DNA of 64,000 bases from a virus: the IMG/VR virus record IMGVR_UViG_3300037222_000116, positions 23,903 to 87,902 of that record, one strand, 5' to 3'. The notes below the pieces were generated by a model. That model worked only from the letters and a program-made list of their open reading frames with translations. It was not told the DNA's origin and did no database searches. A program made the position numbers and the translations under genes. Positions 10,440 through 59,374 of this stretch are shown in pieces (the stretch's first letter is position 1; each line of letters opens with the position of its first letter).

Positions 10440-10907
10440 ATGTCTAAGCCCAAGAAGGGCGCGAGTTCGCGTCGCGCTTTGCCTGTTCTGCGTGGCGGCT
10501 TTGCCGATCGCAATCCCAAGCCGAAGCATGCCAAGGCGAAGGTGAAGGCGGGCTTGCCTGCTCCCTTTGTCGAGCACGAGGAAGCCGTTTCGCAGGCGCG
10601 CACGCAGTCCTACGACGAAGACCTCCGCGAGCTGGGTTTTGTCAACGAGGACGCCTTTCACGAGGCGGTCGACATGAACCGCGCTGCGTTCGCCGCGGCG
10701 CTGGTCGGCCAGCGGCGAGCAGCAGCACAGGTCGATCGCAATGACCGTGTCAGGCGGTCGCTGCTCGGTCTGTTGGAGGTTGAAGAGGTCCGTCTCTTCA
10801 TTGCCGAGAAGACCGGGCGCTTCCACGAGACGGTTCACCAGCTCGTCGAGTTGGCGAAAGACCCCTCGGACCCAGCGTGGGACGAAAAGAAGCCGGTGGC
10901 GCGGTGA
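10440..10907 (+). CDS. hypothetical protein
   Basis: First gene of the rightward replication operon; TTGACG at about 10373. Confidence 0.6.
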   Translation: MSKPKKGASSRRALPVLRGGFADRNPKPKHAKAKVKAGLPAPFVEHEEAVSQARTQSYDEDLRELGFVNEDAFHEAVDMNRAAFAAALVGQRRAAAQVDRNDRVRRSLLGLLEVEEVRLFIAEKTGRFHETVHQLVELAKDPSDPAWDEKKPVAR

Positions 10908-19684: not shown

Positions 19685-19938
19685 TGGCGAGTTGCAAAGT
19701 GTGTCTCGAACACCTGCGCAAAGATGGCACCTGCAAATGGGCTTGTGATCCAAAGCTCGCCAATCCATTCAAGCGCACACGCCCTGTCGGCGTCAAAGAA
19801 GTGCCTGCTGACCAGCGCGGCGCAACGTTCTCGGTGGCAGAGCGACAGAACATGAGCAACGCGGTCGCCAAGGTCGACAAGACCTACGCGAGCTGGAGCA
19901 ATGAGATTCTTGCCCGGAAGAACCACGGCTCACGGTGA
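19685..19938 (+). CDS. small Cys-containing protein
   Basis: CKVC...CKWAC; overlaps the polymerase start. Confidence 0.5.
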
Positions 19939-22934
19939 GCACGGCAGTCGCTACGCCTGTTGTTCGCCTGACCGTCTTGCAGAAGCGTCTGCTCGATGAC
20001 GGGGCGAGATGCTGGGAGTGTCCTCTAGGGCGCGACGGCGCTCCATCCAAGCCTGTAGCTACACAATGGCACAGCAATGGTTCGCCAGCGTTGGCCTTGG
20101 TAGGGGAAGCGCCCGGCAGGAGAGAATGTCAAGTAGGTGCCCCATTCGTCGGCGCGAGCGGAAAAATGCTCGATACGGTCTTGAATCAGACCGAGATCCC
20201 ACGAAACCAAATCGCCATCCTGAACTGCGCTGCTTGCGGTCCAATCCCATCTGCGGCTGACGACATCAAGCGTCGTGCGGTCGAAGCGTGCAGGCCGCGC
20301 CTGCTCGCTGAGCTGAACAGGCTTCAGCCCAAAGTCATTCTTGGGCTCGGTGCGAGCGCCCTGAAGTCTCTCTCGCCACAGCAGAAGAGCGGCATTACCG
20401 TCCTGCGCGGTGCAATGCTGGACTTAGGTACTGACGTCGCGACCAAGTGGAAGCCGTCAGGCTTCTTTACAACTTTTCATCCGGCGCACATTCTTCGAGG
20501 CGGTGACGCCGAGGCCGAGGGACCGGGAGACGAGGGAAGCAGCGCCGTAGACCTCCTGTTCTACTTCTTCCTGTACGACGTCCTGAAGGCGTGGAACGTC
20601 GCGCAGGGCCTTGCGTCACCGTGGCGCGACGAATGTGACCTGTTCGTCCACAGTGAAGAAGGCAAGCTGTTTCGGGCGACGACCAATGCCACTGGCGCAG
20701 GCGTCGTTGGAGACGAAGCACACGCCGACGAGCTGATTGCTGCCGCACAGCGCCTCGCCGACGAAGCGCGTACCGAGGGCCGCTTTGCCTGCGACGTCGA
20801 GACAGACGGCAAGAATTCACTTCTCGCCAACCTGACTGCCATCGGCTTCGCGACGACGTTGGGCGGCTTGAGTGCGACGTGGGAGGCATGGCAGCGCGTA
20901 CCGCAGGCGCTCGGGATCATGCGCGAACTGCTCGCTGATCCACATATCCACATCGTTTTCCACAACCGGACCTACGACACCTGTGTCCTGCCACGACACG
21001 AGCTGCCGGTGCTCGGCATCGTCGACGACACGTTGCTCTTTCACCATGCAGCGTTCCCCGGCCTGCCACACAAGCTCGACCAAGTAGCCACGCAGTTTCT
21101 CATCACGCCGCCGTGGAAAAACGAATTCCGAAAGGGCACAAAAGACTTCGCGACGTTGGTGCTTTACAACTTCAGAGACGCGCACGCGACAGCATTGTTG
21201 GTTGGGCCGTTGATCAACATGATCAAGGCCCACAAGACCGAGAAGGTCTACGAAGTCGACCGCCAGTGTGCGGGCGTCGCGACCGAGATGCGCAAGATCG
21301 GCTTCTACGTCGATCGCGTCGAGCAGAAGCGACATAGCGACATTCAGCACGCCCGCCTCAAGTACATGCGGGAGTCGTTGACCAAGAGCTTCACGGACAT
21401 CGCTGAGCCATGGCGCGTCCAGCTCGCCAAGAACAACGCCAACAAAGTCAGGAAAAAAGACCCCGAGAGCTATCTCGACCGGGTTGCGATTCGCTATCGC
21501 GAGATCGCCGAGCGAGAGAAGAAGCCGACAGACATCGGCTTCTTCAAGCCCAAAGCCAAAGCAGACATCGTCGCTCTCTTTGAAGTGCTCAGGATTCCCT
21601 TCACGGCGTACACGAGTAAGGGCGCTCCGATCACAGACAAGAACGCAATGGAGCTGGCATCGATGCGCCACCCGTTGCTGCGGCAGTTGATTGACCTACG
21701 AGAAGCGCAGCAGTTGCTCGCGACCTACATCGACGGTCTGCCAGTGATGTTCGATGGACGCCTGCACCCTGATTGGAGCGTGAATAAAGTCACTGGACGA
21801 TGGTCTGCTGGGAAAACCCAGAACGTCCCCAAGCAGGTGAGTAGCTGGCCCCCGGAGACGAATGACGATGGGACTTGGAAGAGGAAGAAAAAAGGCGCGT
21901 ACATCACGCCGATCGAGAACCCGCGCTCGATTGTCTGCGCGCCGAGTGCGGCTCAAATTCTGTCACTCGGCTCGAAAGCGCATCCCGAAGTCCTGAGTCG
22001 TGCTCTCGAAGGCTACAGGCGTATGCTCTTCGGAGCTGACTCAGCCCAACAAGAGCTGCGCATCGTCGCGCTGATCAGTGGTGACAAGTTCCTGCTGGAC
22101 ATCTTCAATCGTGGCGAAGACCCGCACGCCGCCTTCGCGCGAATCGCTTTCCCGAAGGTCTTTCCTCAGATCGAAGCTGAGCTGGCGAAGCACGGCGTCA
22201 AGCCCAAGGACACAGCATTCACCAAGAAGAAGATTGCTGAAGCGCAGAACGACATCGAGCGGGCGCATTGGAATGCTGTGCTGCGGCTTCAGAAGAATTG
22301 GAGCAAGCTCCGCGACGTCTCGAAGAACGGCGAGTTCGGCTGCATCTACGGCGCAGGAGCCATGAAGATTTACGAGACATGGCGCATGCGTCTGCCCGAC
22401 GAGGAGACGCTGACTCTGTCTGATGCCGAGGCATTCTTCGAGACGTGCAACCGAGTGCTGGAGGGAGTCAACCGCTGGCGCAATCGGATGGAGACAGACG
22501 CGAGATTGCGAAGAGAGATCCGAGAGGTCTTGGGATACCGGGTTCGACTCTTCCCGCTCGGGCACTTCAATCCCAATATCTGTTACAACTTCCCGGTCCA
22601 AGCCTTCGGCGCATCGTTGATTGCGAGGGCTATCTTCCGGTTCGTGGCGCTGACGCAGCCGTCGTGGCTCAACCTCGGGATGCTCTACAAGAACGGCCTG
22701 CTCGATGCCAAGTGGGTGAGTGACAGAAGAGCCGAGGGCTATGGTGATTGGAAGGCTCCTGTGTGGCTGTTGATCAACGGCCACGATTCACTGGTCGGTG
22801 AATGCGACGAGGAGGACGCTGCCAAAGCCGCCAAGCTGCTAGAGCTGGCAATGACGATGCGCGTGAACATCGGCGACGCGTCGATTCTCTTTCCCGCCGA
22901 GCCTGACGTCGGCGTTCGTTGGTCGGAGGTTTGA
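19935..22934 (+). CDS. DNA polymerase family A fused to an N-terminal uracil-DNA glycosylase (family 4-like) domain
   Basis: CWEC...GEAPG...PFVG...HPA UDG motifs; exonuclease CDVETD, HNRTYD, YNFRDA; Pol motifs DSAQQELR, K..EFGCIYG, HDSLV. Confidence 0.93.
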   Translation: MSTAVATPVVRLTVLQKRLLDDGARCWECPLGRDGAPSKPVATQWHSNGSPALALVGEAPGRRECQVGAPFVGASGKMLDTVLNQTEIPRNQIAILNCAACGPIPSAADDIKRRAVEACRPRLLAELNRLQPKVILGLGASALKSLSPQQKSGITVLRGAMLDLGTDVATKWKPSGFFTTFHPAHILRGGDAEAEGPGDEGSSAVDLLFYFFLYDVLKAWNVAQGLASPWRDECDLFVHSEEGKLFRATTNATGAGVVGDEAHADELIAAAQRLADEARTEGRFACDVETDGKNSLLANLTAIGFATTLGGLSATWEAWQRVPQALGIMRELLADPHIHIVFHNRTYDTCVLPRHELPVLGIVDDTLLFHHAAFPGLPHKLDQVATQFLITPPWKNEFRKGTKDFATLVLYNFRDAHATALLVGPLINMIKAHKTEKVYEVDRQCAGVATEMRKIGFYVDRVEQKRHSDIQHARLKYMRESLTKSFTDIAEPWRVQLAKNNANKVRKKDPESYLDRVAIRYREIAEREKKPTDIGFFKPKAKADIVALFEVLRIPFTAYTSKGAPITDKNAMELASMRHPLLRQLIDLREAQQLLATYIDGLPVMFDGRLHPDWSVNKVTGRWSAGKTQNVPKQVSSWPPETNDDGTWKRKKKGAYITPIENPRSIVCAPSAAQILSLGSKAHPEVLSRALEGYRRMLFGADSAQQELRIVALISGDKFLLDIFNRGEDPHAAFARIAFPKVFPQIEAELAKHGVKPKDTAFTKKKIAEAQNDIERAHWNAVLRLQKNWSKLRDVSKNGEFGCIYGAGAMKIYETWRMRLPDEETLTLSDAEAFFETCNRVLEGVNRWRNRMETDARLRREIREVLGYRVRLFPLGHFNPNICYNFPVQAFGASLIARAIFRFVALTQPSWLNLGMLYKNGLLDAKWVSDRRAEGYGDWKAPVWLLINGHDSLVGECDEEDAAKAAKLLELAMTMRVNIGDASILFPAEPDVGVRWSEV

Positions 22935-28315: not shown

Positions 28316-28681
28316 TTACTTCTTGCCGAGGAACGCGTTGGCGCGGGCGACCGCCACCAGCACTTCCGGCTTGGGTTGAGAGCCACGCAGGACGGTCTTC
28401 TCGATGGTCTGGAGCGCGACCATGACGACGCACGTCGCCAACTCGGGCGCGAGCGAGGTCAGCGTGCTCTGCTCGTTCGCCCACGCGCCTGTGTCGCCGA
28501 GCAGCGCGTTGACGGCGTTGTCGACGAGGGGACCGACGCTGCCGATCGTGACGTTCGCTGCACAGCCGAGCGTCGCGAGCCCTGCCTGCGTCAGCGTCGA
28601 TTCCACCTGCGCCGTGTTGCACGTCGCACACGACGTCACGAAGAGGCAGAGGGCCGTCAGAAACCGATTCGGTGAGCGCAT
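28316..28681 (-). CDS. putative lipoprotein
   Basis: Signal-like MRSPNRFLTALCLFVTSC lipobox; helical body. Confidence 0.65.
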   Translation of the reverse strand: MRSPNRFLTALCLFVTSCATCNTAQVESTLTQAGLATLGCAANVTIGSVGPLVDNAVNALLGDTGAWANEQSTLTSLAPELATCVVMVALQTIEKTVLRGSQPKPEVLVAVARANAFLGKK

Positions 28682-28718
28682 GTTGAGCAGCTTATGCTAC
28701 TCGTGTAGGCTCTTGCAA

Positions 28719-29444
28719 ATGGGCAAGCCACGCCGACGCCGACGCCGGATGTTCCGAGGAGTAGGACGGCTCGGTGCGCCTGCCGTGCGCGTGCCGCCTG
28801 TTCACGCTCGCCAGCGCGGCGTCTGTCAGGTCATCCGAGATCCTGACACGCTGCTGGTTCGCCACGCTCTTCAGGACGAAGAGCTGGAGTCGATGTACCT
28901 CGTCGACAAGAACATCCTGATCTTCGGCGATGAGAACTGCGTTGGCGAACCTGATCGGACCACGCACCTCGGGCCGAACTTCTGGATCGTCCACAACCAT
29001 CCGCTCGGGAGCCCACCGTTCCTGTCTGTCGCTGACGGCTGCTTCGCCAACTACCATTCTGCGCGTCGCATGGACGTCGCGGGCTTCATGCCGATCGACG
29101 AGCATCACGCCGTTCGGGTCGTCATGGAGTTCCGACAGCGCAACGCTCGGAAGCGATGGCCTTGCGACGATGACGCCGACATGAACTCGATGATGCCGAA
29201 CGACGGCAACATCGAGGTCAAGCAGTACATCGCTGATGAATACCCGCTCTACTTCGATACGGGGCGGCGACGGATTGAGCTTGCCAAGATGGACCGCGAG
29301 TTCCAGCGCGAGGAAGCTGAGCGCATCCGTGAAGACGAAGTGGAGAGGGAGCGAAGGAAGACCGCTCGATTCAATGACCTCGAAATCGACGGCGCTCGTC
29401 GTCCTCGAAAGCGCGTGAAGGCGGCACGTCGAGCTTCCCGATGA
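28719..29444 (+). CDS. JAB/MPN (RadC-like) metallopeptidase domain protein with Arg-rich ends
   Basis: E...VHNHPLGSPPFLSVAD matches HxH-x(7-8)-SxxD; N-terminal PRRRRRR...RLG, C-terminal IDGARRPRKR. Confidence 0.7.
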   Translation: MGKPRRRRRRMFRGVGRLGAPAVRVPPVHARQRGVCQVIRDPDTLLVRHALQDEELESMYLVDKNILIFGDENCVGEPDRTTHLGPNFWIVHNHPLGSPPFLSVADGCFANYHSARRMDVAGFMPIDEHHAVRVVMEFRQRNARKRWPCDDDADMNSMMPNDGNIEVKQYIADEYPLYFDTGRRRIELAKMDREFQREEAERIREDEVERERRKTARFNDLEIDGARRPRKRVKAARRASR

Positions 29445-32322: not shown

Positions 32323-32607
32323 ATGGACACCATCGACGACGGCGAGCTGGGGCGCGCAGGGCGCTGCAAGTACGGCAAGGTCACGCGCGGCAGGCGCAAG
32401 GGGCAATGTCGCTTGCACAAGAAGGCTCCCAAGGCGAGCAAGCGGCGCAGCGGGCAGCGGCATTGCGTGCGGACGGCGGTCAATCGTCTCACGCGCCGCG
32501 AGTACTGCGCTGACTACGAGCCGGGTCCGTCGCCCTACCCCAAGGGCACGCGCTTCATCCAGCCGGTCTACGGCGCGCGGCGTAGCAAGCGTCGTCGCTC
32601 ACGCTAG
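32323..32607 (+). CDS. protamine-like CKYG protein 1
   Basis: MDTIDDGELG|RAGRCKYGKVTRG...YGARRSKRRRSR. Confidence 0.75.
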   Translation: MDTIDDGELGRAGRCKYGKVTRGRRKGQCRLHKKAPKASKRRSGQRHCVRTAVNRLTRREYCADYEPGPSPYPKGTRFIQPVYGARRSKRRRSR

Positions 32608-32636
32608 AGAACAACGGCCCAAAGCGCGAGAACGCT

Positions 32637-32705
32637 CTGAGCCGTTGGACCGATGTTCCGGTCTTGTGTGGTCCCGTCGGAAGCGGGGAGCCGCAACAGG
32701 CTCAG
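32637..32705. ncRNA. candidate three-way-junction RNA element
   Basis: CTGAGCC-GTTG/CAAC-A-GGCTCAG closing stem with internal GACCG/CGGTC and CCCG/CGGG stems. Confidence 0.3.
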
Positions 32706-32711
32706 TTTCTC

Positions 32712-32742
32712 TTGACGTTGCTGTAGCAAATCTGCTACTGCT
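32712..32742 (+). promoter_or_regulatory. sigma70-like promoter with embedded operator (32722-32739)
   Basis: TTGACG, then TGTAGCA-AATC-TGCTACT; ATG at 32748. Confidence 0.65.
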
Positions 32743-32747
32743 CGGGA

Positions 32748-33155
32748 ATGCCTTACATCACCCTCGATGGTATTTCCTATGCTGTCGTTCACGACGGCTG
32801 CTTCATCACAAATGATGGCCTCGATTACCTGCGGGCGATCGACCGCGGCAAGGGCTGTTACTCGAAGACGCGTGATGCCCCCGAACGTGAGCAGGTGGAA
32901 CTCGCCAAGAAGTTCATCGTCGCGAACTGTCTCAAGACCAAGACGATCCGTGATCTGATTGATTCCTATGGCTGGAAGCATCGCTGTGAGCGTTGGGGGA
33001 AAGCACAGGGCTTTGCCGCCTACGTGACCAACGGCGCGTTTCTCCAAGCTGCCTATGAGATGGGAGGCATCGCCATCAAACCGTGCAGGCCGGGTTGCAT
33101 CAATGCATGGCTGTCCCTCGGATTTGCCCGAGGCCGCACGAAGCTCTGCTTGTAG
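32748..33155 (+). CDS. phage hypothetical protein (SYGxKH...YxxNGxF type)
   Basis: DSYGWKHRCE...YVTNGAFLQAA; has its own promoter. Confidence 0.7.
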   Translation: MPYITLDGISYAVVHDGCFITNDGLDYLRAIDRGKGCYSKTRDAPEREQVELAKKFIVANCLKTKTIRDLIDSYGWKHRCERWGKAQGFAAYVTNGAFLQAAYEMGGIAIKPCRPGCINAWLSLGFARGRTKLCL

Positions 33156-33255
33156 TTTAGTTGCAATTATACAACAATTTGCAATCGCTGTAGCTCCACG
33201 TCTACACTCGCTCCCGATGCTGTAAGCAATTCCTCGTTCATCTCGGAGCGACACC

Positions 33256-33471
33256 ATGGCGACCAACGAATTCGTTTCCAACGACGGCGAGCTGGGGCGC
33301 GCACGCAAGCGCACCTGCAAGTTCGGCAAGACCAAGGCGGGCAAGTGCCGCAAGACGCCCAAGCGCAAGGGTCGCCGTGGGTGCTCCTTCGGTCGCTCGC
33401 GCACCACCGGCAAGTGCAAGCCGCGCACGAGCAAGTACGGCACGCAGCGCGGCCCCCTGCGCCCTCGCTAA
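33256..33471 (+). CDS. protamine-like CKFG protein 2
   Basis: MATNEFVSNDGELG|RARKRTCKFGKTKAGKCR...CSFGRSRTTGKCK. Confidence 0.75.
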   Translation: MATNEFVSNDGELGRARKRTCKFGKTKAGKCRKTPKRKGRRGCSFGRSRTTGKCKPRTSKYGTQRGPLRPR

Positions 33472-33482
33472 AGGAGACGACC

Positions 33483-33797
33483 ATGAGCGACTGTGGATGT
33501 GACGGAGGCGACGACCTCGGTCGCGCCAAGAAGCGACGCACCTGCAAGTACGGTCGCGTCAAGAGCACCGGGCGCTGCCGCAAGCAGCCGAAGCGTCGCA
33601 CTGCCTCGAAGCGAGGCCGGGCGATCCCCAAGGTCTGCAAGCAGCAGCTCTCGCGCGACATGAGGGCCGCGCACGGCGACCGCGGGATGGCGCGCGACGC
33701 GATGTACGCGTTCCACAACTGCACCGACGACATCAAGCGCGGTGTGCGCACGAGGTCGCAGGGCATGTTCGGCGCACGCCGCCGCAAGCGTCGATAG
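33483..33797 (+). CDS. protamine-like CKYG protein 3
   Basis: AAGGAG RBS; MSDCGCDGGDDLG|RAKKRRTCKYG...GMFGARRRKRR. Confidence 0.75.
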   Translation: MSDCGCDGGDDLGRAKKRRTCKYGRVKSTGRCRKQPKRRTASKRGRAIPKVCKQQLSRDMRAAHGDRGMARDAMYAFHNCTDDIKRGVRTRSQGMFGARRRKRR

Positions 33798-33812
33798 GAG
33801 CCCTGTCCTTCA

Positions 33813-33989
33813 ATGCCCAAGCGCAGCGACGAGTACACCGAGGGCTTTCGCACGGGGTATGACGAGGGCAAGAACGACGGCTACGAGCAGTGCGAAGAAG
33901 CCGCGAAGCGTGGTGCGCTGAGCGGCTCTCGCCGCCGTTGCAAGTACGGCAAGACGAAGGCCGGGAAGTGTCGCAAGCGTCCTCGCTGA
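33813..33989 (+). CDS. protamine-like CKYG protein 4 (absent from the ORF track)
   Basis: Hand-translated MPKRSDEYTEGFRTGYDEGKNDGYEQCEEAAKRGALSGSRRRCKYGKTKAGKCRKRPR. Confidence 0.7.
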   Translation: MPKRSDEYTEGFRTGYDEGKNDGYEQCEEAAKRGALSGSRRRCKYGKTKAGKCRKRPR

Positions 33990-34038: not shown

Positions 34039-35775
34039 ATGTACCAACTCGGCGATTCGCAGACCTCCCGGTTCGCTCCCAAGACCAAGACCACGCAGGC
34101 TGATCGTGACCTCGTGCGCCAGCAGCAGGCGCAGGCACTCAAGATCGCCCAGCTCCAGCGGGCGCTGCGGTCCGCGGCTGCCAAAGACGATCGAGGCCAC
34201 CTGCCGAGCGTCAACGGGCACATGGACTCTGTGACCGTCGAAGCCCTGAACAACCTGATGCACAATCGAAGGTCCGCCTTTCAGGGCGCGTCGCCGTCCG
34301 AGATCCTCGTCAACATGGACCGGCTGATTTCCGAGATCAGCAAGAATGCCATCGGTGCGACCGAGCACAGCGCCACGCCGACAGCCGGGACGCGGATGCA
34401 CAACGATCATCCGAGCGCCTACACCGTGCGCGTCGGCAAGGCGACGATCGAGGAGCGCCACGTCGCCCCGAAGGGAAGTGCGATTGTCGGACACTACACC
34501 TGCACGGGTGGCATCTGCGTCGGTAACTCTGTCGACGCGCGCGCCAAGTCGTTGATCCTGCAACGGCTGCTCAATATGTTCCCGCCTTCCATCACCGGGC
34601 AGCCTCTCATCGCCGATGGCAAGATCGGCAACAACGCAGCGGCGGCATTCAATGCCGTCCTCGCCCACGCGGCTGCACGTCAGAATCAATCCCCGCCGAC
34701 GCCGGTCCCGCCCGAGAACATCGTGCGCGACATCGAAGCGTATATCGACGCGCTCAACGAAGAGCTGCCGTTCGCGCGGCAGACAGGTGGCAGCCCGACC
34801 TCGCCGCTGCTCTACACCGCGCAGGCCAACGGGAACATTACGGGCGACCCGCAATGGCGCTGCTACGTGATGAACCTGCAAGCGCAGCTCAATCGCTTCG
34901 GGCACCGGATTTCGTTCGATGGCGTCATCGGCAAGCACACGAGCGCGGCGGTGCAGTCGGCGCTCGGAGGAAGCTGGAATCCTCTCGCCGTCGCCAAGGC
35001 GATGCCCAAGCTCATCGTCATGGTCAAGCAGCTTGCCGACCGCAAGAAGAAGCCTCCGGTGCTGGCGAGCACCATCTCGCTCATCAACGCCAAGTGCGGC
35101 CTCGAAGTCACGCAGCCCGTCGAGGACAAGAAGCATCAGGGAGCCGTCGATCGCGTCGGCCAGCCGCCCGTCGTCATCCAGCAGAACGCGATGATCCCGC
35201 TCGAAAAGGTGCGGCTGCTGCAATCGCTCCTGAACACGATGCCGCTCGAAGCGGTCGGGGGACTACGCTTGCAGACAAGCGGGATGCTCGACGACCAGAC
35301 GGTCAATGCGTGGCGGGCCGTCAACCAGTACGTCGCGCACGTCAACGGGCGCGGTGATCTCGGAAACGAGATCGCGTCCATCGACGCGAGCGGCATGGTA
35401 CGGGAGATCGACACCGTGCTCGCACAGGCAAAGCAGTGGACCGCGCAGTTCGTGCAGGCACGGGCTCCGCAGCGGCGCGGGAGTGGTGCTCCAGCTCCGC
35501 GCCACACGCGTTCGGCTCCGATGCCGCAGCCGCAGGTGTATCACCTGCCACCGGAAGTGACTGTGCCCGAGGCACCCTCGTTCCCGCAGGGACCGGAGGA
35601 CAACTATCCGCCCGAGGGACCGGGCTCGGGACCGGACTATCCGCAGACCGCTCCCGAGCCGCCCCGAGGCAAGAAGACGCCGTGGGCTCTGATCTTCAGT
35701 GGCCTCGCTGCGGCTGCCACCGTCGTCGGCGTCGGTGCAGCCGTACTCAGCAAGCAGCACTCGCACTCGATGTAG
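34039..35775 (+). CDS. protein with four peptidoglycan-binding-like repeats and a C-terminal TM anchor
   Basis: LQxxL[NR]...[DN]GxxGxxT-type repeat x4; Pro-rich linker; WALIFSGLAAAATVVGVGAAVL; begins MYQLGD. Confidence 0.75.
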   Translation: MYQLGDSQTSRFAPKTKTTQADRDLVRQQQAQALKIAQLQRALRSAAAKDDRGHLPSVNGHMDSVTVEALNNLMHNRRSAFQGASPSEILVNMDRLISEISKNAIGATEHSATPTAGTRMHNDHPSAYTVRVGKATIEERHVAPKGSAIVGHYTCTGGICVGNSVDARAKSLILQRLLNMFPPSITGQPLIADGKIGNNAAAAFNAVLAHAAARQNQSPPTPVPPENIVRDIEAYIDALNEELPFARQTGGSPTSPLLYTAQANGNITGDPQWRCYVMNLQAQLNRFGHRISFDGVIGKHTSAAVQSALGGSWNPLAVAKAMPKLIVMVKQLADRKKKPPVLASTISLINAKCGLEVTQPVEDKKHQGAVDRVGQPPVVIQQNAMIPLEKVRLLQSLLNTMPLEAVGGLRLQTSGMLDDQTVNAWRAVNQYVAHVNGRGDLGNEIASIDASGMVREIDTVLAQAKQWTAQFVQARAPQRRGSGAPAPRHTRSAPMPQPQVYHLPPEVTVPEAPSFPQGPEDNYPPEGPGSGPDYPQTAPEPPRGKKTPWALIFSGLAAAATVVGVGAAVLSKQHSHSM

Positions 35776-39932: not shown

Positions 39933-40838
39933 ATGAAGCGCGCATTTCGTAACACCAACTTTCGTCCTGATTCACTCGCCCGCATTGCTCAGATGGATAG
40001 CATTGTCCGCGAGTACGCGAGGCAGAACCTTCGCCTGACAGCCCGCCAGCTCTACTACCAATTCGTCAGCCGCGACTTCATTCCCAACACGCCACGCAGC
40101 TACAAGAACTTGACGTCGCTGCTCGCCGACGCGCGCTACGCCGGGCTGGTCGATTGGGATGCGATCGAGGACCGCGGGCGCGAGGCCGACACGCCGTCGC
40201 AGTGGGAAAACATTTCGGGCCTCGTAGACAGTGCTGCGCGCGCGTTTCGTCTTCCCCGCTGGCGTGGGCAGGATACCTACGCTGAGTTGTGGGTTGAGAA
40301 GCAAGCCCTCGCGGGCGTCCTCGAACCGCTCGCGCGTGAGTTCCACGTCACGCTGATGGTCAACAAGGGCTATTCGTCGGCGTCAGCCATGTACGCCAGT
40401 GCGCAACGCATCCAGCAAGGTGTTGAAGCATGTGACAGCGAGCAGGAGGCGACCGTCTTCTACCTCGGGGACCACGATCCCTCGGGTGAAGACATGGTTC
40501 GCGACATCACCGATCGGCTCACCGAGTTCGGGTGCGACGTCAACGTCGAGAAGCTCGCGCTGACGATGGAGCAAGTGCGGCAATACAACCCGCCGCCGAA
40601 CCCCGCCAAGACGACAGACAGCCGCTATGCCGCCTACGCTGCCGAGCATGGCGGGTCGAGCTGGGAGGTCGATGCGCTGCCGCCGAACGTGCTGTCGCAG
40701 ATCATCCGCGACGCCTTCGAGAACATCATCGACGGCGATCTCATGGACGCCATCAAGACCCGTGAGCAAACCTTGATCGGTGAGTTGCGCACAGCAGCGC
40801 GAACGCTCGACGAAACGGTTTCCTCCGACGAGGAATAG
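39933..40838 (+). CDS. TOPRIM nuclease-like protein (topoisomerase VI-A-like)
   Basis: LTARQLYYQ winged helix; WVEKQAL, GYSS, YLGDHDPSG, WEVDAL. Confidence 0.85.
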   Translation: MKRAFRNTNFRPDSLARIAQMDSIVREYARQNLRLTARQLYYQFVSRDFIPNTPRSYKNLTSLLADARYAGLVDWDAIEDRGREADTPSQWENISGLVDSAARAFRLPRWRGQDTYAELWVEKQALAGVLEPLAREFHVTLMVNKGYSSASAMYASAQRIQQGVEACDSEQEATVFYLGDHDPSGEDMVRDITDRLTEFGCDVNVEKLALTMEQVRQYNPPPNPAKTTDSRYAAYAAEHGGSSWEVDALPPNVLSQIIRDAFENIIDGDLMDAIKTREQTLIGELRTAARTLDETVSSDEE

Positions 40839-53700: not shown

Positions 53701-56700
53701 TTACGGCCCGGTTCCGATCATGCGAAAGTACGGCTGACGGAAGACGTTAGCCGCGCCTGTTTGGTTGATGTCGCTGATGTGCATTGAGTTAGCGAAAGCG
53801 CCTGTGCCTGTGCTGTAGAGGCCATTCCCGAAGAATCCGGTGTGATCACCACCACCCGGAATCGCGCCAACAGCGATACCGCTTTGTCCAAAGATCGACA
53901 CGCTCGCGGTTGAACCCGCGACGCCTGCTACGCTGTGAATGAATCCAATTAGATAATCGCCGGGCGTGAAGCTCCACGTTCCGAGCGCGATGCTGCGCCA
54001 CCGCGTGCCGCTCTGTCCGCTGTATGATCCGGTGTTGCTAATTGCACCCCCCGAGTTCCACGCCAACGCCGCCGACGTAGAAGAGACGGTAGACGCCGAG
54101 CTACCAGCGAACGTATAGATCGCAATGCTCATCGTTGTAGAGCCTTGCGTAGCGGCTGCAATGGTCAGGTTGCCAAGATATTCAAGAACCGTTGGTGATA
54201 TGTTTGCTGGTATATGAAAGCGCTGAAAACTCACGTTTGCAGATGTGCTGACAGACGCTGCGCCATTGGCGATCAAGGCCATCGGGAAGTCGTTTTCCCA
54301 ATAGCTCAAAGCGAGTAACTGCGCAGTCATTTGCGAAGAGCCGCTCAAGCCAAATGAGATCCCGTTGCTATTGACGAAGGCAATGGTTCCTGACGTCCCG
54401 GTTTGCCCACCAGCAGCGACAGCGACACCCGCGGGAACGGTATAGCTCGCAGTAATTTGTGAACTGCCGCTCATACCGAAAGTGATGCCGTTGCTATTGG
54501 CGAAAACAACTGTCCCTGTTGCAGCCGTCTGCGATCCTGCGGCTACGTCAACAACGCCAGCGACAGAGCCGGTAATCGTCCCGCCACCGGCCCCCGTTGC
54601 CATTCCAAAGCTGATGTTGTTGAGATTCGAGAACGAAACGTCGCCGGTTGTTGCGGTCCCACCGCTCGCAGCAATCGACTGGATGCCGGGCTGTACTGTC
54701 TGCGTCGGAACTGTATAGCTCGCTGTAATGCCAGTCGAGCCGCTCATTCCGAACGAAATGCCATTGCTGTTAACGAAGGCGACAGTTCCGCTCGCTGCGG
54801 TCTGTGAGCCTGCGACGATGTCAAGCACGCCAACAGCAGGCACCGTGTAGGAAGCTGTAACTGTCCCGCCTCCAGCTCCGGTAGCCATCCCGAATGTCAC
54901 GCCATTGGAGTTGGCGAAACTGACGTCTCCTGTTGTTGCTGTACCACCGCTCGCGGCGACAGATTGAATTCCCGGTTGAACAGTCTGGGTAGGAACGGTG
55001 TAGCTGGCGGTGATTCCGGTCGAACCAGACATCCCGAAACTGATTCCGTTCGAGTTGACCAGCGCGATCGTCCCGCTCGTTCCAGTCTGCGATCCAGCAG
55101 CAAACCCTCCCGGTGCTACGCTCTGCGCGGCGATGCTGGCGGTGATGGTCGAACCGCTCAACCCGAACGTCACACCATTCGAGTTGGCGAACTGAACAGT
55201 GCCGTTGGTGACGACAGATGTCCCACTTCCCTGCAACGCTGCTGGAGCTGTCGACTGTGAATAGCTTGCGGTAATGCCGGTCGACCCGGACATTCCGAAC
55301 GTGACACCATTCGAGTTGACAAAGGCAACTGTGCCGCTGGCGGCGGTCTGTGATCCGGCAGCAATGTCCAGCACGCCAACAGCAGGGACGCTATAACTGG
55401 CAGTAACCGTTCCGCCGCCAGCTCCAGTCGCCATTCCAAATGTGACGCCGTTGCTATTGGCAAACGAAACATCGCCTGTCGTAGCGGTGCCTCCCGAAGC
55501 AGCAATCGACTGAATGCCGGGCTGGACTGTTTGAGTTGGGACTGTGTAGCTCGCAGTGATCTGCGTGCTACCGCTCATCCCAAACGTGATCCCATTGCTG
55601 TTAACGAAGGCAATCGTGCCGCTCGTACCTGTCTGCGAACCTGCGGCAATGGCTCCCGGTGCAACGCTTTGCGCAGCAATCGAAGCTGTAACTGTTCCGC
55701 CGCCGACGCCCGTTGCCATTCCAAATGTGACACCATTGGAATTCGCAAAGCTGACATCACCAGTCGTAGCAGTCCCGCCAGAAGCAGCGATTGATTGGAT
55801 GCCCGGTTGAACGCTCTGCGTCGGCACGGTGTACGACGCGGTGATCGCGGTCGACCCACTCATCCCGAACGAGATGCCGTTCGAGTTGACGAACGCGATG
55901 GTTCCCGAGCTGCCGGTTTGCGATCCAGCAGCGATTGCAGCAGGACCAGTGCTCTGCGAGTACGATGCTGACGCCGTCAGCGTAGAGCCATTGATACCAA
56001 AGCTGACATTGTTGCTGTTGCTGAAGACCAGTGACGACGCAGAGACGCTTGCGGTGATGGCGGTCGAGCCGCTCATTCCAAAGGTCACACCATTGGAATT
56101 GACGAAAGCGATTGTCCCAGATGTCGCTGTTTGAGAGCCTGCGGCGATAGCCCCCGGTGCTGTACTCTGCGCTGCAATCGACGCCGTCAGCGTTGATCCC
56201 GCAATCCCAAAACTGACGTTGTTGCTGTTCGAGAACACCAACGACGACGCGGAGACACTTGCCGTGATGGCAGTGCTCCCAGACATCCCGAACGTCACGC
56301 CATTGCTGTTGACGAAGGCGACAGTTCCACTGGTCGCTGTTTGCGTTCCAGCAGCGATTGCCCCCGGTGCTGTGCTTCCTGCTGCAACACTCGCGGTCAT
56401 CGTCTGCCCGGCGAGGCCGAAGCTCACACCATTGCTGTTGCTGAAGACAACCGTGCCGCTTGTGTCGGTTACGCCACCTGCGGCAATGCCTCCAAGATTG
56501 CCGGTGGCTGTCGCACCAGCAGCGATACTCGCCGTGATTTGCGAAGACCCCGACATCCCGAACGTGACGCCATTCGAGCCTACAAAGACGATCGTACCGC
56601 TGTTGCCAGTTTGTGACCCTGCGGCAATTCCAATATCGACGTCGGCGGGATTGATGGATGCCGTGATGGTCTGCCCGGCGATACCGAAACTGACACCGCC

Positions 56701-57342
56701 ACCGTTGGCAAACGAGATCCCTGAGCCGCCTGCGTTGCCGCCACCAGCACTGACCTCCCGAATGGCGTCCATCGACGCGGTGATCTGCGAGCTGCCAGAC
56801 ATACCGAACGCGAAGCCGTTAGAATCAGCAAAGACAAACGTCCCGGTCGAGCCGCTTTGTGTTCCAGCACTCAGCGCCGGGACAGGCTGCACGCTCTGCG
56901 CAGGGAACGACGCCGACGCTGTGATGGTGCTGCCAGCGATGCCGAAGCTGACGTTGTTAGCATTGGAGAACGATACTGTGTTGTTCGTAACTGGAGGCCC
57001 CGGTGCGGCGTTGACGCCACCAAGGTTGCCTGTCCCGCCACCGCCACCACCGCCGCCACCCTGCCAATAAAGAGTCTGGTTGTCGTTGGTGAGTTTCTGG
57101 ATCGAATGCTCCAGCTCACAAAAGAAGTTCGCGAACTGCGGCGCAGCATCCGGGTTGTGAACCGTGATGTTGATGTTGTCGACGGCGAGGACTTGCAGCG
57201 GCGTCGCGCGATCGGGCTGAACAATGTTTGGAACAGCGCCTTTGTTGTCGACGATGATGCCGTGCGGGAGGACAACCGTCCCACCGGGCGGCACAGGGCC
57301 GACCGGGACGGTTCGCGTAATAGCCGTCCGCGGAGCCTGCAT
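53701..57342 (-). CDS. repeat-rich fibre/spike protein
   Basis: More than 20 imperfect AAGSQTxxSGTxxFxNSNGxxFGxxGxxxITAS repeats; distinct N- and C-terminal domains. Confidence 0.8.
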   Translation of the reverse strand: MQAPRTAITRTVPVGPVPPGGTVVLPHGIIVDNKGAVPNIVQPDRATPLQVLAVDNINITVHNPDAAPQFANFFCELEHSIQKLTNDNQTLYWQGGGGGGGGGTGNLGGVNAAPGPPVTNNTVSFSNANNVSFGIAGSTITASASFPAQSVQPVPALSAGTQSGSTGTFVFADSNGFAFGMSGSSQITASMDAIREVSAGGGNAGGSGISFANGGGVSFGIAGQTITASINPADVDIGIAAGSQTGNSGTIVFVGSNGVTFGMSGSSQITASIAAGATATGNLGGIAAGGVTDTSGTVVFSNSNGVSFGLAGQTMTASVAAGSTAPGAIAAGTQTATSGTVAFVNSNGVTFGMSGSTAITASVSASSLVFSNSNNVSFGIAGSTLTASIAAQSTAPGAIAAGSQTATSGTIAFVNSNGVTFGMSGSTAITASVSASSLVFSNSNNVSFGINGSTLTASASYSQSTGPAAIAAGSQTGSSGTIAFVNSNGISFGMSGSTAITASYTVPTQSVQPGIQSIAASGGTATTGDVSFANSNGVTFGMATGVGGGTVTASIAAQSVAPGAIAAGSQTGTSGTIAFVNSNGITFGMSGSTQITASYTVPTQTVQPGIQSIAASGGTATTGDVSFANSNGVTFGMATGAGGGTVTASYSVPAVGVLDIAAGSQTAASGTVAFVNSNGVTFGMSGSTGITASYSQSTAPAALQGSGTSVVTNGTVQFANSNGVTFGLSGSTITASIAAQSVAPGGFAAGSQTGTSGTIALVNSNGISFGMSGSTGITASYTVPTQTVQPGIQSVAASGGTATTGDVSFANSNGVTFGMATGAGGGTVTASYTVPAVGVLDIVAGSQTAASGTVAFVNSNGISFGMSGSTGITASYTVPTQTVQPGIQSIAASGGTATTGDVSFSNLNNISFGMATGAGGGTITGSVAGVVDVAAGSQTAATGTVVFANSNGITFGMSGSSQITASYTVPAGVAVAAGGQTGTSGTIAFVNSNGISFGLSGSSQMTAQLLALSYWENDFPMALIANGAASVSTSANVSFQRFHIPANISPTVLEYLGNLTIAAATQGSTTMSIAIYTFAGSSASTVSSTSAALAWNSGGAISNTGSYSGQSGTRWRSIALGTWSFTPGDYLIGFIHSVAGVAGSTASVSIFGQSGIAVGAIPGGGDHTGFFGNGLYSTGTGAFANSMHISDINQTGAANVFRQPYFRMIGTGP

Positions 57343-58348: not shown

Positions 58349-59374
58349 CTACAACTGGTAGCCGAGCGCGAGCAGCTCGCGGATGACGTCAACCGCCTTC
58401 GCCGACGAAGGGCGTGTGATACGACTGAACCGCAGACCGCGGCGCGCTGCTCGCCCCATGAGCAGCTTTCGCGCCCTACGACGCGAGGTGTTCGGGCTCG
58501 ACGCCGACGACGGAACGCCGACAGCGTCCTTTTGCACCATCGCCCACTTCTGGCCGTCCCAATACTGGCCGTAGCCACCGGGGCGAATCTCGAACGGCTC
58601 CTTGCAGAGTCCGAGGTAGTCGTACTTCGCTCCCGCAGGGAGCCCACCATCGAGAGGCGACCAGTAGAGCGGTAGGGTGAAGTTGCTCACCTGCACGCCG
58701 TCGATCGTGTAGCTATCGTCCTCGACAGCGTCGCAGACCTCTGCCGCCCAGATTTTGCCGGTGGCGGGATCTTGCACACAGGAATTCAATTCGGGATCAC
58801 CTTCGGCTTCGAGGATCTCGTGCGACGTACTCGACGACGGATCGACGCCGTCCTGAAGATCAAGCGCCGGGAAGACCTTGATGACCAGCTTGCCGGTCGC
58901 CGTCCGATCGTGGTAGGCGAGCGCGCCTTCCTGATCGACTTTGTCGGTGTAGAGCACGACGTTCTCGTCGGGTTGCGCGGGCAACTCTGCCGTCGCTGCG
59001 CGAACGTTCGCGCCCATGGCGTAGCCGTTCGGCGCAGGCTGCGCGAAGTGCTCGTTCACCTGCTTGGACATCGCGGCGGCGATCTCCACGCAGCGCGTCG
59101 GCGTGACCGAGGGACTCTCCGTCACGAGCACGTACTTGTTGCCGATCGCCACCTGATCGTAGGTCGCGTTGACAGACACCGGGGGCTGACCAACGGGCTG
59201 TGTCACAGGGACTCCTTTGGGGCGAGGGGCAGGGTGATGCCGTGAAGCCGCCGTCGCGGCGAGTGCATCCTGCTTGTCGACGGGCAGCGTGCCGTGAGAC
59301 GACAAGTGGCGCTTGCCGGTGTGCAGGACACGCATCTTGTTGGCGTGGTGTCGCGACGGACGCTTCGGGGGCAT
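58349..59374 (-). CDS. zincin-type metallopeptidase with basic N- and C-terminal extensions
   Basis: ALAYH...SHEILE...DP...EVCDAVE...VSNF; tail RRRARKLLMGRAARR. Confidence 0.7.
   Translation of the reverse strand: MPPKRPSRHHANKMRVLHTGKRHLSSHGTLPVDKQDALAATAASRHHPAPRPKGVPVTQPVGQPPVSVNATYDQVAIGNKYVLVTESPSVTPTRCVEIAAAMSKQVNEHFAQPAPNGYAMGANVRAATAELPAQPDENVVLYTDKVDQEGALAYHDRTATGKLVIKVFPALDLQDGVDPSSSTSHEILEAEGDPELNSCVQDPATGKIWAAEVCDAVEDDSYTIDGVQVSNFTLPLYWSPLDGGLPAGAKYDYLGLCKEPFEIRPGGYGQYWDGQKWAMVQKDAVGVPSSASSPNTSRRRARKLLMGRAARRGLRFSRITRPSSAKAVDVIRELLALGYQL

What the first reader, a model, noticed from the sequence alone, without database searches (positions are those of the whole stretch)
32323..33989. 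Four protamine-like CK(Y/F)G proteins with acidic leaders ending in LG/LSG
Seen: DDGELG|RAGRCKYG, NDGELG|RARKRTCKFG, GGDDLG|RAKKRRTCKYG and GALSG|SRRRCKYG. In each, an acidic leader switches abruptly at a Gly to a K/R-rich module, C-K-[YF]-G-x(4-7)-G-x-C-R. Two proteins end in YG|ARRSKRRR and MFG|ARRRKRR. The fourth gene is missing from the ORF track. Known: adenovirus core precursor pVII is cleaved at MFGG|AKKRS by the viral protease. Inference: these are DNA-condensing core precursors whose acidic pro-peptide neutralises them until maturation, which would be an unusual feature for a bacterial virus.
Basis: partly seen in the sequence, partly recalled or inferred. Interest (0 to 1): 0.85.

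Follow-up and report, generated by a model that had tools for sequence, protein, structure and literature searches.

The report
Cysteine-bracketed polycationic peptides of a tailless virus
Four small, very basic genes in an uncultured peat virus belong to an undescribed family of cysteine-bracketed cationic mini-proteins that sits beside membrane and capsid genes of a whole group of large, apparently tailless bacterial viruses; they probably coat the packaged DNA, but their short acidic leaders are a lineage-specific signal and not a charge neutraliser.

Summary
All four ORFs, the quoted junctions and both C-terminal tails are present. The module motif occurs 7 times in the 87.9-kb genome, all in six paralogues, against 0.29 expected. 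The scan had already noted this six-member family on the overlapping window of the same genome (e1-6127853), not on other DNA.

- **Family:** the module C-[KR]-[FY]-G-K-V-x-x-G-x-R-K-G-x-C has no Pfam, PHROG or PDB match. It gives 45 representative clusters at E<=0.001.
- **Leaders:** most members are leaderless peptides of about 30 aa (69 of 120 held). Related viral genomes carry one such copy.
- **Context:** the gene lies directly upstream of a hydrophobic protein. In several lineages it lies just upstream of a jelly-roll capsid candidate (best match SPV1, Z 7.2).
- **Co-occurrence:** that capsid gene is in 12 of 15 peptide-bearing records. A transglutaminase-fold Cys enzyme is in 9 of 10.
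- **Absent:** no terminase, HK97 capsid, A32 ATPase or adenain was found.

Best reading (about 0.5): virion polycations that bind the genome. Neutralisation is not supported, because leaders carry -1 to -4 against +11 to +28. Cleavage at [DE]-L-G is untested. That junction recurs in the genome's LPDLG tags and on a membrane protein, so it looks like a shared signal.

The parts
32323..32607 (+). Paralogue 1 (P0001, 94 aa): 10-aa acidic leader ending ELG, one Cys-bracketed module, a linker with two more Cys, and the tail VYGARRSKRRRSR.
   Evidence: GC3 0.86. 67% identical homologue P0009. AF2 gives pLDDT 78-92 over about residues 11-40.
32323..32352 (+). Leader of paralogue 1 (MDTIDDGELG, net -4).
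32365..32409 (+). Module of paralogue 1 (C15 to C29, CKYGKVTRGRRKGQC).
   Evidence: It matches the family consensus of A2/A4.
32569..32604 (+). C-terminal tail of paralogue 1 (YGARRSKRRRSR).
   Evidence: Similar hydrophobic-x-G-(A/G/L)-Arg-run endings occur in distant members P0045, P0050, P0132 and the L007 peptide.
33256..33471 (+). Paralogue 2 (P0002, 71 aa): 14-aa leader ending ELG and two modules (33316-33348 and 33382-33417).
   Evidence: GGAG lies 7-12 nt upstream. Homologue P0010.
33483..33797 (+). Paralogue 3 (P0003, 104 aa): 13-aa leader with C-G-C ending DDLG (33483-33521), module 33543-33578, two further Cys, and the tail MFGARRRKRR (33765-33794).
   Evidence: AAGGAG lies upstream. 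82% identical homologue P0007.
33813..33989 (+). Paralogue 4 (P0004, 58 aa): 38-aa mixed-charge leader ending ALSG (33813-33926) and module 33939-33971.
   Evidence: GC3 0.80.
34039..35775 (+). Downstream neighbour, 578 aa, with peptidoglycan-binding repeats and a C-terminal hydrophobic helix. A protein of like build lies in the structural block of a related virus (L010 7101-8831).
32748..33155 (+). Unrelated 135-aa ORF of lower GC3 (0.69) lying between paralogues 1 and 2. It is not part of the family and is listed only to delimit the cluster.

Best explanation
The four genes, plus two more elsewhere in the genome, encode members of an undescribed family of small polycationic proteins. The family is built on a Cys-bracketed mini-domain of 11-15 residues, C-[KR]-[FY]-G-K-V-x-x-G-x-R-K-G-x-C, flanked by Lys/Arg runs.

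The family is a hallmark of a group of uncultured 75-138 kb viruses from soil, peat and permafrost. These viruses have a jelly-roll capsid candidate, many small membrane proteins and no recognisable packaging motor.

Most likely (inferred) the proteins are made late and enter the particle. There they bind and neutralise the genome, possibly bridging it to Arg-tailed proteins of an internal membrane. Precedents are proteins VII and Mu in adenovirus and VP1 in the archaeal virus SPV1.

The compact loop is held by its two Cys, through a disulphide or a shared metal; which one is not known.

In this genome the family has expanded to six copies. Five of the six paralogues have acquired short acidic N-terminal leaders ending in [DE]-L-G-[KR]-A (four) or ALSG. 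This is the same junction that precedes the Arg tails of the genome's LPDLG-tagged proteins, and it also occurs near the N-terminus of the adjacent membrane protein.

I read the leader as an addressing or processing signal shared by virion proteins, possibly cut by the conserved transglutaminase-fold Cys enzyme. I do not read it as a charge-neutralising pro-piece.

Shown: sequence family, paralogy, composition, gene neighbourhood and co-occurrence. Inferred: DNA binding, presence in virions and cleavage.
For: **Composition.** Net charge is +11 to +28 and K+R is 35-58% after the junction. Cys numbers are even (2 or 4) in every mature part.

**Real, conserved family.**
- 89 proteins at E<=10 in the word-indexed search.
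- 45 representative clusters at E<=0.001 among 1.84 billion proteins.
- In 30 stand-alone peptides, C, G, G, R-K-G and C are invariant.
- AF2 gives pLDDT 78-92 for the module and under 65 elsewhere.

**Viral, not cellular.**
- Only 4 confirmed loci in 185,579 species genomes, all on MAG contigs.
- 10 loci in IMG/VR, nine on contigs of 75-138 kb and one on a 20-kb fragment.

**Structural context.**
- In G000 the order is P0011, P0006, hydrophobic protein, jelly-roll protein (GC3 0.96).
- The same order occurs in L007, L010, L035, L037, L042, L044 and L045, and likewise in L012, where the ~250-aa proteins that follow are not A3 homologues.
- In 20 of 22 peptide genes outside G000, the next ORF has a 19-residue window of mean hydropathy 1.23-1.79. 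The background is 40% of 538 ORFs at >=1.23.
- Nine loci share one family of about 100 aa as that neighbour, and 8 of these 9 end in an Arg run.

**Co-occurrence.**
- The capsid-candidate homologue is in 8 of 10 viral records and in 4 of 5 further records.
- The transglutaminase-like protein is in 9 of 10, lying 2.3-7 kb from the capsid gene in the eight records that hold both. The L010 orthologue passes Pfam's cut-off at 33.8 bits.

**Capsid candidate.** AF2 mean pLDDT is 69. VIA-align's best match is the SPV1 capsid chain 6oj0_T (Z 7.2, rmsd 3.5, 134 aligned). HHIV-2, HCIV-1 and P23-77 VP17 are also listed.

**No packaging motor or tailed-phage genes found.**
- No TerL, portal or HK97 hit in Pfam or PHROGs on about 50 ORFs.
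- No hit in six-frame searches with Terminase_6N, Phage_capsid or Pox_A32.
- The only P-loops are the D5-like helicase and a Sak4-like protein.

**Signal reading of the leader.**
- [DE]LG[RK]A occurs at 6 places: 4 CK[YF]G leaders and 2 LPDLG tags.
- DELG also precedes the hydrophobic part of the neighbouring membrane protein in G000 and L042.
- The heptapeptide M-(x)-V-F-T-I-D-G is kept before otherwise divergent basic parts in P0006, P0026, P0108, L042 and L044.

**Precedents.** SPV1 has single jelly-roll capsid proteins, an inner membrane and a VP1-DNA core (PMC8459092, passages read). Adenovirus proteins VII, V and Mu bind the packaged DNA (PMC4189039 and PMC7998265, passages read).
Against: - There is no direct evidence that the proteins are in particles or bind DNA. 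No RNA run holds the locus.
- In nine loci the peptide gene follows replication genes (PolA, a helicase-like protein, a Dam-like methylase). There it lies 20-80 kb from the capsid gene in the five full records I located. It does, however, open a run of small membrane-protein genes.
- The capsid assignment rests on a moderate model (pLDDT 69) and a Z of 7.2, which the tool itself calls middling.
- Not finding a packaging ATPase is negative evidence from sequence profiles only.
- A strictly conserved, Gly-rich structured loop is unlike true protamines. It may point to a specific partner, protein or membrane, and not to generic DNA condensation.
- A small hydrophobic protein with a charged C-terminus next to a cationic peptide could also be a lysis pair.
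- Most family members lack any leader, so processing cannot be central to the family's function.
Confidence: 0.5

Rival explanations
1. Non-structural intracellular nucleic-acid binders. The peptides would act in the infected cell, for example by compacting or silencing the host nucleoid or by coating replicating viral DNA or RNA, and would not be packaged.
For: The composition is the same as for the core-protein reading. In nine loci the gene sits right after a replication block of PolA, a helicase-like protein and a Dam-like methylase. No evidence of packaging exists.
Against: The gene is tightly coupled to a downstream hydrophobic protein in 20 of 22 cases. In at least nine lineages it lies next to the capsid candidate. 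GC3 is 0.80-0.86, within the range of the neighbouring structural-block genes. Arg tails are common on this lineage's membrane proteins, which fits a virion-interior role.
Confidence: 0.2
2. Membrane-active cationic peptides for lysis or entry. A Cys-closed cationic loop would work with the adjacent small membrane protein (holin-like, with a charged C-terminus) or with the peptidoglycan-binding protein to breach the envelope.
For: The next gene is a small hydrophobic protein with an Arg-rich end in 8 of 9 class-A loci. In the window, the four genes lie between two proteins with peptidoglycan-binding domains: one clear, and one weak at E 0.19. Loop size and charge recall beta-hairpin antimicrobial peptides and a phage-encoded cationic lysis peptide; both resemblances are recalled from memory and were not tested.
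Against: No catalytic endolysin domain was found beside them. Arg tails also end soluble, non-membrane proteins of these viruses, so they are not holin-specific. Six paralogues, some with 60-90-aa basic extensions, are hard to explain as lysis peptides. The module has one aromatic and almost no other hydrophobic residue, so it is poorly amphipathic.
Confidence: 0.12
3. Exported bacteriocin- or RiPP-like peptides. A short leader ending in Gly would be removed by a papain-like peptidase, releasing a Cys-containing cationic core.
For: The layout is leader, then Gly, then a Cys-containing cationic core. A papain-fold enzyme is conserved in the lineage.
Against: The junctions are LG or SG, not the GG/GA/GS of double-glycine leaders (that motif is recalled from memory). 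No C39-ABC exporter or modification enzyme was seen in about 50 ORFs scanned. Most homologues have no leader at all. The family is confined to viral contigs.
Confidence: 0.03
4. Not genes. The ORFs would be chance open frames in GC-rich DNA.
For: Long antisense ORFs overlap the region. The first gene lacks a clear ribosome-binding site.
Against: The motif recurs 7 times only in these frames against 0.29 expected. GC3 is 0.80-0.86. Three genes have ribosome-binding sites. Conserved homologues occur in many metagenomes.
Confidence: 0.02

Closest known systems
Adenovirus core proteins pVII and pX/Mu with the maturation protease AVP (adenain)
   Same: Small Arg/Lys-rich proteins bound to the packaged dsDNA of a jelly-roll-capsid virus. 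The precursors carry short N-terminal (pVII) or N- and C-terminal (pMu) pieces that a virus-encoded Cys protease removes next to Gly (PMC7998265 and PMC4189039, passages read). Here there are basic proteins with leaders ending in Gly, tails of the form hydrophobic-x-G-A-Arg, and a conserved Cys-enzyme gene near the capsid gene.
   Different: There is no sequence similarity. The junctions do not fit (M/I/L)XGG-X or (M/I/L)XGX-G. No Peptidase_C5 is encoded; the candidate enzyme has a transglutaminase (papain-like) fold. The capsid candidate is a single jelly roll, not a double one. Most family members have no leader. The host is presumably bacterial.
Sulfolobus polyhedral virus 1 (Portogloboviridae): single jelly-roll shell, inner membrane, VP1-DNA nucleoprotein core
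   Same: The best structural match of this lineage's capsid candidate is an SPV1 capsid chain (Z 7.2). SPV1 condenses its genome with a small nucleocapsid protein inside a membrane (PMC8459092, passages read). Many small membrane proteins are encoded here too.
   Different: SPV1 is a 20-kb archaeal virus, while these genomes are 75-138 kb with bacterial-type genes. Homology of the CK[FY]G proteins to VP1 was not tested because no VP1 sequence was at hand. The Z score is only middling.
Bacteriophage T4 internal proteins (IPI-III) with their capsid targeting sequence
   Same: About 1000 copies of small proteins are embedded in the packaged DNA. They are diverse proteins sharing a short conserved N-terminal targeting sequence (PMC3012670, passages read). 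Here a short junction motif is shared by otherwise different proteins.
   Different: T4 has an HK97 capsid, a scaffold core and a terminase; none was found here. There is no sequence similarity. The T4 proteins are larger and lack the Cys loop.
Protamines and protamine-like viral proteins (baculovirus P6.9, ascovirus P64)
   Same: Extreme K/R content, small size and a presumed role in DNA charge neutralisation (PMC6163548, abstract seen in the listing).
   Different: Those are low-complexity, fast-evolving proteins of eukaryotic viruses or sperm. This family has a strictly conserved Gly/Cys-spaced loop that AF2 models with high confidence.

Membership tests
Adenovirus-type core precursor / adenain system | Highly basic small protein | tested here: met
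   K+R is 35-58% and net charge is +11 to +28 after the junction.
Adenovirus-type core precursor / adenain system | Cleavage sites of the form (M/I/L)XGG-X or (M/I/L)XGX-G (PMC7998265) | tested here: not met
   Read by eye. The leaders end GELG-R, GELG-R, DDLG-R and ALSG-S, with no Gly at P2. The tails MFGA-R and VYGA-R have P4 and P2 right but neither Gly at P1 nor Gly at P1'.
Adenovirus-type core precursor / adenain system | Virus encodes a Peptidase_C5 (adenain) protease | tested here: not met
   A six-frame search of the whole genome with PF00770 found no match at E<=1.
Adenovirus-type core precursor / adenain system | Leader is removed in mature virions | not testable with these tools
   This needs virion N-terminomics.
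T4-type internal proteins | Conserved N-terminal targeting sequence shared by otherwise different packaged proteins | tested here: inconclusive
   [DE]LG[RK]A is shared by 4 leaders and 2 LPDLG tags. V-F-T-I-D-G is kept in one orthologue group. Packaging is unknown.
T4-type internal proteins | HK97-fold capsid, prohead protease and terminase | tested here: not met
   No match to Phage_capsid or Terminase_6N in six frames. No such PHROG among 38 ORFs scanned.
Viruses with vertical single jelly-roll capsid proteins and an inner membrane (SPV1, sphaerolipoviruses) | Jelly-roll major capsid protein | tested here: inconclusive
   AF2 pLDDT is 69. The best VIA match is the SPV1 capsid at Z 7.2. HHIV-2, HCIV-1 and P23-77 VP17 score Z 5.2-6.1. 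The best Foldseek E-value is 0.02.
Viruses with vertical single jelly-roll capsid proteins and an inner membrane (SPV1, sphaerolipoviruses) | A32/FtsK-type packaging ATPase (present in sphaerolipoviruses; recalled) | tested here: not met
   No Pox_A32 match in six frames. The only Walker-A proteins are a D5-like helicase and a Sak4-like protein.
Double-glycine-leader bacteriocins | GG/GA/GS at the leader end and a C39-ABC exporter (recalled) | tested here: not met
   The junctions are LG or SG. No such domain appeared in the Pfam scans of 40 ORFs.
Any curated protein family | Match to a Pfam, PHROG or PDB sequence profile | tested here: not met
   Pfam: 0 of 38 family members matched below E 0.03. 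PHROGs: nothing below E 0.004 for the four proteins. The PDB profile search found 0 at E<=10. Foldseek and VIA on the model found no match.

The most novel reading that the evidence does not exclude
This lineage of 75-138 kb bacterial viruses has no DNA-packaging motor. Instead it would condense its genome with CK[FY]G polycations and with the Arg tails of inner-membrane and cargo proteins, then build a membrane and a single-jelly-roll shell around that nucleoprotein. A transglutaminase-fold cysteine protease would afterwards trim short acidic-aliphatic-Gly signals ([DE]-L-G, [LI]-[DE]-G). This would be a bacterial counterpart, invented independently, of the adenovirus core-maturation system and of the SPV1 nucleoprotein core.
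Probability: 0.2. Interest if true: 0.85.

Novelty: new variant of a known kind. Interest (0 to 1): 0.62.

Why it matters
Genome-condensing polycations are textbook features of eukaryotic and some archaeal dsDNA viruses. In the listings of my literature searches I saw them described for eukaryotic and archaeal viruses but not for bacterial viruses. Tailed bacterial viruses are understood to pack naked DNA with a motor.

A conserved, structured polycationic mini-protein would give a testable handle on a different way of building a bacterial virus particle. It is linked to membrane and jelly-roll capsid genes in a whole group of large uncultured soil and peat viruses that show no terminase or A32-type ATPase.

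The 30-residue stand-alone form is small enough to synthesise. It could be assayed directly for DNA binding, redox or metal dependence, and membrane binding.

The shared acidic-aliphatic-Gly junctions, together with a conserved papain-fold enzyme, give a concrete substrate-enzyme hypothesis. If the proteins turn out to be ordinary non-structural DNA binders, the family is still a useful marker for this undescribed virus group.

Tried and rejected
**Profile and database searches that found nothing**
- Pfam and PHROGs on the four proteins and their neighbours gave no family. The only hit was a weak Yae1_N match in the leader of P0004, which I take as chance.
- A PDB sequence profile, Foldseek and VIA-align on the P0001 model found no match.
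- The ESM Atlas, queried with P0001 and P0125, gave no usable hit.
- GenBank phages had no match by tblastn with P0003, P0013 or the capsid candidate, nor by blastn of 8 kb. The low-complexity filter may hide peptide matches.
- The search for related loci with P0003, the 578-aa neighbour or P0125 in IMG/VR found no relatives.

**Comparisons that gave no result**
- hhalign of the capsid candidate (A3) against the next conserved protein (A6) showed no relationship (probability 0.3). I therefore do not claim two paralogous jelly rolls.
- Expression: no RNA holder was listed.
- Read laying on three DNA runs showed only identical sequence. It gave no variants for a selection test.

**Readings rejected**
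- Charge neutralisation by the leader, on charge arithmetic.
- A strict adenain-type site and an adenain enzyme.
- JAB/MPN and zincin candidates from earlier notes as the protease. Pfam (E<=0.01) and PHROGs found nothing in window 28404-29444 and 58349-59374. This is weak negative evidence.

**Limits on my counts**
- The hydropathy count has a high background: 40% of ORFs reach >=1.23. That background set includes spurious ORFs.
- The 120-protein census inherits the start codons chosen by the sources. Several long 'leaders' contain an internal M-A-K/R and may be miscalled starts.
- 14 of the 134 held proteins lacked the module and were left out of that census. 13 of these are the capsid homologues.
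- L025 and L038 were dropped as duplicates of L010's record.
- Supplements of papers were not opened.
Full report
**What is there.** The window is bases 23903-87902 of an 87,902-bp IMG/VR virus record with direct terminal repeats, rated 100% complete. The four ORFs lie on the + strand at these places:

| Protein | Window coordinates | Length |
|---|---|---|
| P0001 | 32323-32607 | 94 aa |
| P0002 | 33256-33471 | 71 aa |
| P0003 | 33483-33797 | 104 aa |
| P0004 | 33813-33989 | 58 aa |

- The fourth ORF is simply shorter than the default 60-aa cut-off.
- Two further paralogues lie outside the window on the minus strand. They are at genome 10358-10621 (P0006, 88 aa) and 10634-10786 (P0011, 51 aa). 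For P0011, the ATG at 10786 has AGAGGAG 7 nt upstream.
- The motif C.[FYW]G.{3,9}G.C occurs 7 times in all six frames of the genome, only in these six genes. Random sequences gave a mean of 0.29 and a maximum of 2.
- GC3 is 0.80-0.86 for three of the genes.
- GGAG-type sites precede genes 2-4.

**The family.** Pfam, PHROGs and the PDB hold nothing like these proteins.

- A word-indexed search with the six paralogues returned 89 proteins at E<=10 among 665 candidates.
- A full HMMER scan of 1.84 billion representatives returned 45 at E<=0.001.
- I read 60 of the first set and 35 of the second and first sets.
- The common form is a stand-alone peptide of 29-34 aa. It starts M-A-K/R plus a few basic residues, then the module C-[KR]-[FY]-G-K-V-x-[RS]-G-x-R-K-G-Q-C-[RL]-K, then a basic tail.
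- In an alignment of 30 such peptides, C, G, G, R-K-G and C are invariant.
- Forms with two modules, and forms with a second, different Cys pair, also exist.
- Of 120 held proteins with the module, 69 have the first Cys within 12 residues of the start.
- AF2 on P0001 with a 38-row alignment models residues of about 11-40 at pLDDT 78-92 and the rest below 65. Almost no regular secondary structure is predicted, and no PDB fold match was found.
- So the module is a conserved, probably structured loop closed by its two Cys. It is not low-complexity protamine sequence.

**Where the family lives.**

- Patterns from the peptide alignment found 4 confirmed loci in one genome each of 185,579 prokaryote species. 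All were on MAG contigs.
- The same patterns found 10 loci in IMG/VR, nine on contigs of 75-138 kb and one on a 20-kb fragment.
- Related viral records carry one copy each. G008 has two, and this genome has five by profile and six by motif.
- The same virus is present, letter for letter where covered, in peat and permafrost runs of three studies. Two of these may be its source.

**Gene neighbourhood.** In this genome the order is:
1. P0011
2. P0006
3. a 253-aa hydrophobic protein
4. a 239-aa protein with GC3 0.96
5. a conserved 195-aa protein

- The same order recurs around the single peptide of L007, L010, L035, L037, L042, L044 and L045. L012 is arranged likewise, but the ~250-aa proteins that follow are not A3 homologues.
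- In nine other loci the peptide follows a replication block. It is followed at once by one conserved family of about 100 aa with a hydrophobic helix.
- Eight of those nine neighbours end in an Arg run such as L-S-G-A-R-R-R-R-R.
- Overall, in 20 of 22 peptide genes outside this genome, the next ORF has a 19-residue window of mean hydropathy 1.23-1.79. Nine of these reach 1.6 or more. The background is 40% and 21% of 538 ORFs of similar size.

**What kind of virus.** The 239-aa protein was folded with a 16-row alignment.

- The model has mean pLDDT 69 and is a beta sandwich.
- Foldseek's best rows are capsid proteins of SPV1 and P23-77 (E about 0.02).
- VIA-align's best is SPV1 chain 6oj0_T (Z 7.2, rmsd 3.5, 134 residues). 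Capsid jelly rolls of PBCV-1, STIV, HHIV-2, HCIV-1 and P23-77 score Z 5.2-6.2.
- These scores are middling by the tool's own note.
- Its homologue is in 8 of 10 peptide-bearing viral records. The two misses are a 20-kb fragment and a record rated 66% complete. It is also in 4 of 5 further records.
- A transglutaminase-like protein is in 9 of 10 records. In the eight that also hold the capsid gene it lies 2.3-7 kb from it. Pfam Transglut_core gives E 2.7e-4 for this genome's copy and 33.8 bits, above the cut-off, for the L010 orthologue. The G-G-D-C motif is conserved.
- Pfam and PHROG scans of about 50 ORFs found no terminase, portal, HK97 capsid, adenain or A32-type ATPase. Six-frame searches with Terminase_6N, Phage_capsid, Pox_A32 and Peptidase_C5 also found none.
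- The only Walker-A proteins are a D5-like helicase and a Sak4-like protein.
- I therefore agree, with moderate confidence, with the earlier follow-up that this is a tailless, probably membrane-containing virus.

**The leaders.**

- Net charge of the leaders is -1 to -4. Net charge of what follows is +11 to +28. Neutralisation is arithmetically implausible.
- The acidic [DE]-L-G leader is kept in the close relatives P0007, P0009 and P0010 (65-82% identity). It appears sporadically elsewhere: S-D-L-G in P0115, and E-L-G in a 98-aa protein of L012. Most members lack it.
- The junction [DE]-L-G-[KR]-A is the same string that links the genome's LPDLG tags to their Arg tails. There are 6 sites in all: 4 leaders and 2 tags.
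- D-E-L-G also stands before the hydrophobic part of the neighbouring membrane protein, here and in L042.
- A second leader type, M-(x)-V-F-T-I-D-G, is conserved in the P0006 orthologue group, while the basic part that follows has diverged.
- Small membrane proteins of the other loci begin with a similar hydrophobic stretch ending [ED]-G.
- Hydrophobic-x-G-(A/G/L) followed by an Arg run also ends distant family members.
- These short acidic-aliphatic-Gly strings before basic stretches therefore look like a lineage-wide signal. Whether the signal is cut, and by what, is not shown.
- None of the junctions fits the adenain consensus given in PMC7998265.

**Reading.**

- Most likely (about 0.5) the proteins are virion polycations that bind the genome. 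They may tie it to Arg-tailed inner-membrane proteins. In this genome the family has expanded and acquired an addressing or processing leader.
- Precedents, all from passages I read:
  - adenovirus VII and Mu with AVP (PMC7998265, PMC4189039);
  - the VP1-DNA core of SPV1 inside a single-jelly-roll shell and membrane (PMC8459092);
  - T4 internal proteins with a capsid-targeting sequence (PMC3012670).
- Rivals are non-packaged nucleic-acid binders (0.2), a lysis or entry peptide paired with the adjacent membrane protein (0.12), exported bacteriocin-like peptides (0.03) and non-genes (0.02).
- My literature searches did not turn up this family or this virus group. I read only the listings of those searches. 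Paper supplements were closed.

Noticed in passing
L013 10187-10492; L016 10156-10479; L018 4399-4701 and six more loci: A conserved protein of about 100 aa directly follows the 30-aa peptide. It has a soluble N-part (..Y-E-Q-T..P-G-G-Y-x-S-F-Y..), one hydrophobic helix and, in 8 of 9 copies, an Arg-run ending such as L-S-G-A-R-R-R-R-R. It could be a virion inner-membrane protein or a holin-like protein.
   Followed up: partly
L007 1025-2536: The transglutaminase-like protein of this relative is 503 aa instead of 171-188. It diverges right after the conserved G-G-D-C and has a weak Hint_2 hit there (E 0.0014, below cut-off). This may be an intein inserted at the catalytic Cys.
   Followed up: partly
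window 32748-33155: A 135-aa ORF of lower GC3 (0.69) splits the paralogue cluster. It has only weak hits to PHROGs of unknown function (E 7e-4). It may be a later insertion.
   Followed up: no
window 34039-35775 and L010 7101-8831: Large proteins with repeated peptidoglycan-binding domains and a C-terminal hydrophobic helix, but no catalytic lysin domain, lie in the structural block. They could be a virion protein that grips the cell wall during entry.
   Followed up: partly
window 19935-22934: A family A DNA polymerase is fused to an N-terminal uracil-DNA glycosylase-superfamily domain (Pfam E 3e-21). The polymerase has homologues near the peptide gene in six related loci.
   Followed up: partly
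window 39933-40838: Strong match to a PHROG annotated as DNA topoisomerase (E 1.3e-92), although Pfam at E<=0.01 found nothing.
   Followed up: no
window 53701-57342: A 1213-aa protein with internal repeats. A 519-aa protein of L016 matches it at seven offset places. It is a fibre-like candidate with no family hit.
   Followed up: no
whole genome G000: No P-loop protein other than a D5-like helicase and a Sak4-like protein was found. No terminase or A32-type ATPase turned up in profile searches. The packaging mechanism of this 88-kb virus is open.
   Followed up: partly
P0125, P0107 (metagenome proteins): Lys-rich relatives with a C-[KP]-K-G-[VM]-V-[KQ]-S-G-[SP]-R-[EK]-G-x-C variant. P0125 also has repeated S-P-R-K motifs, which recall the SPKK DNA-binding motifs of sperm histones (recalled from memory). 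Their source organisms are unknown.
   Followed up: partly
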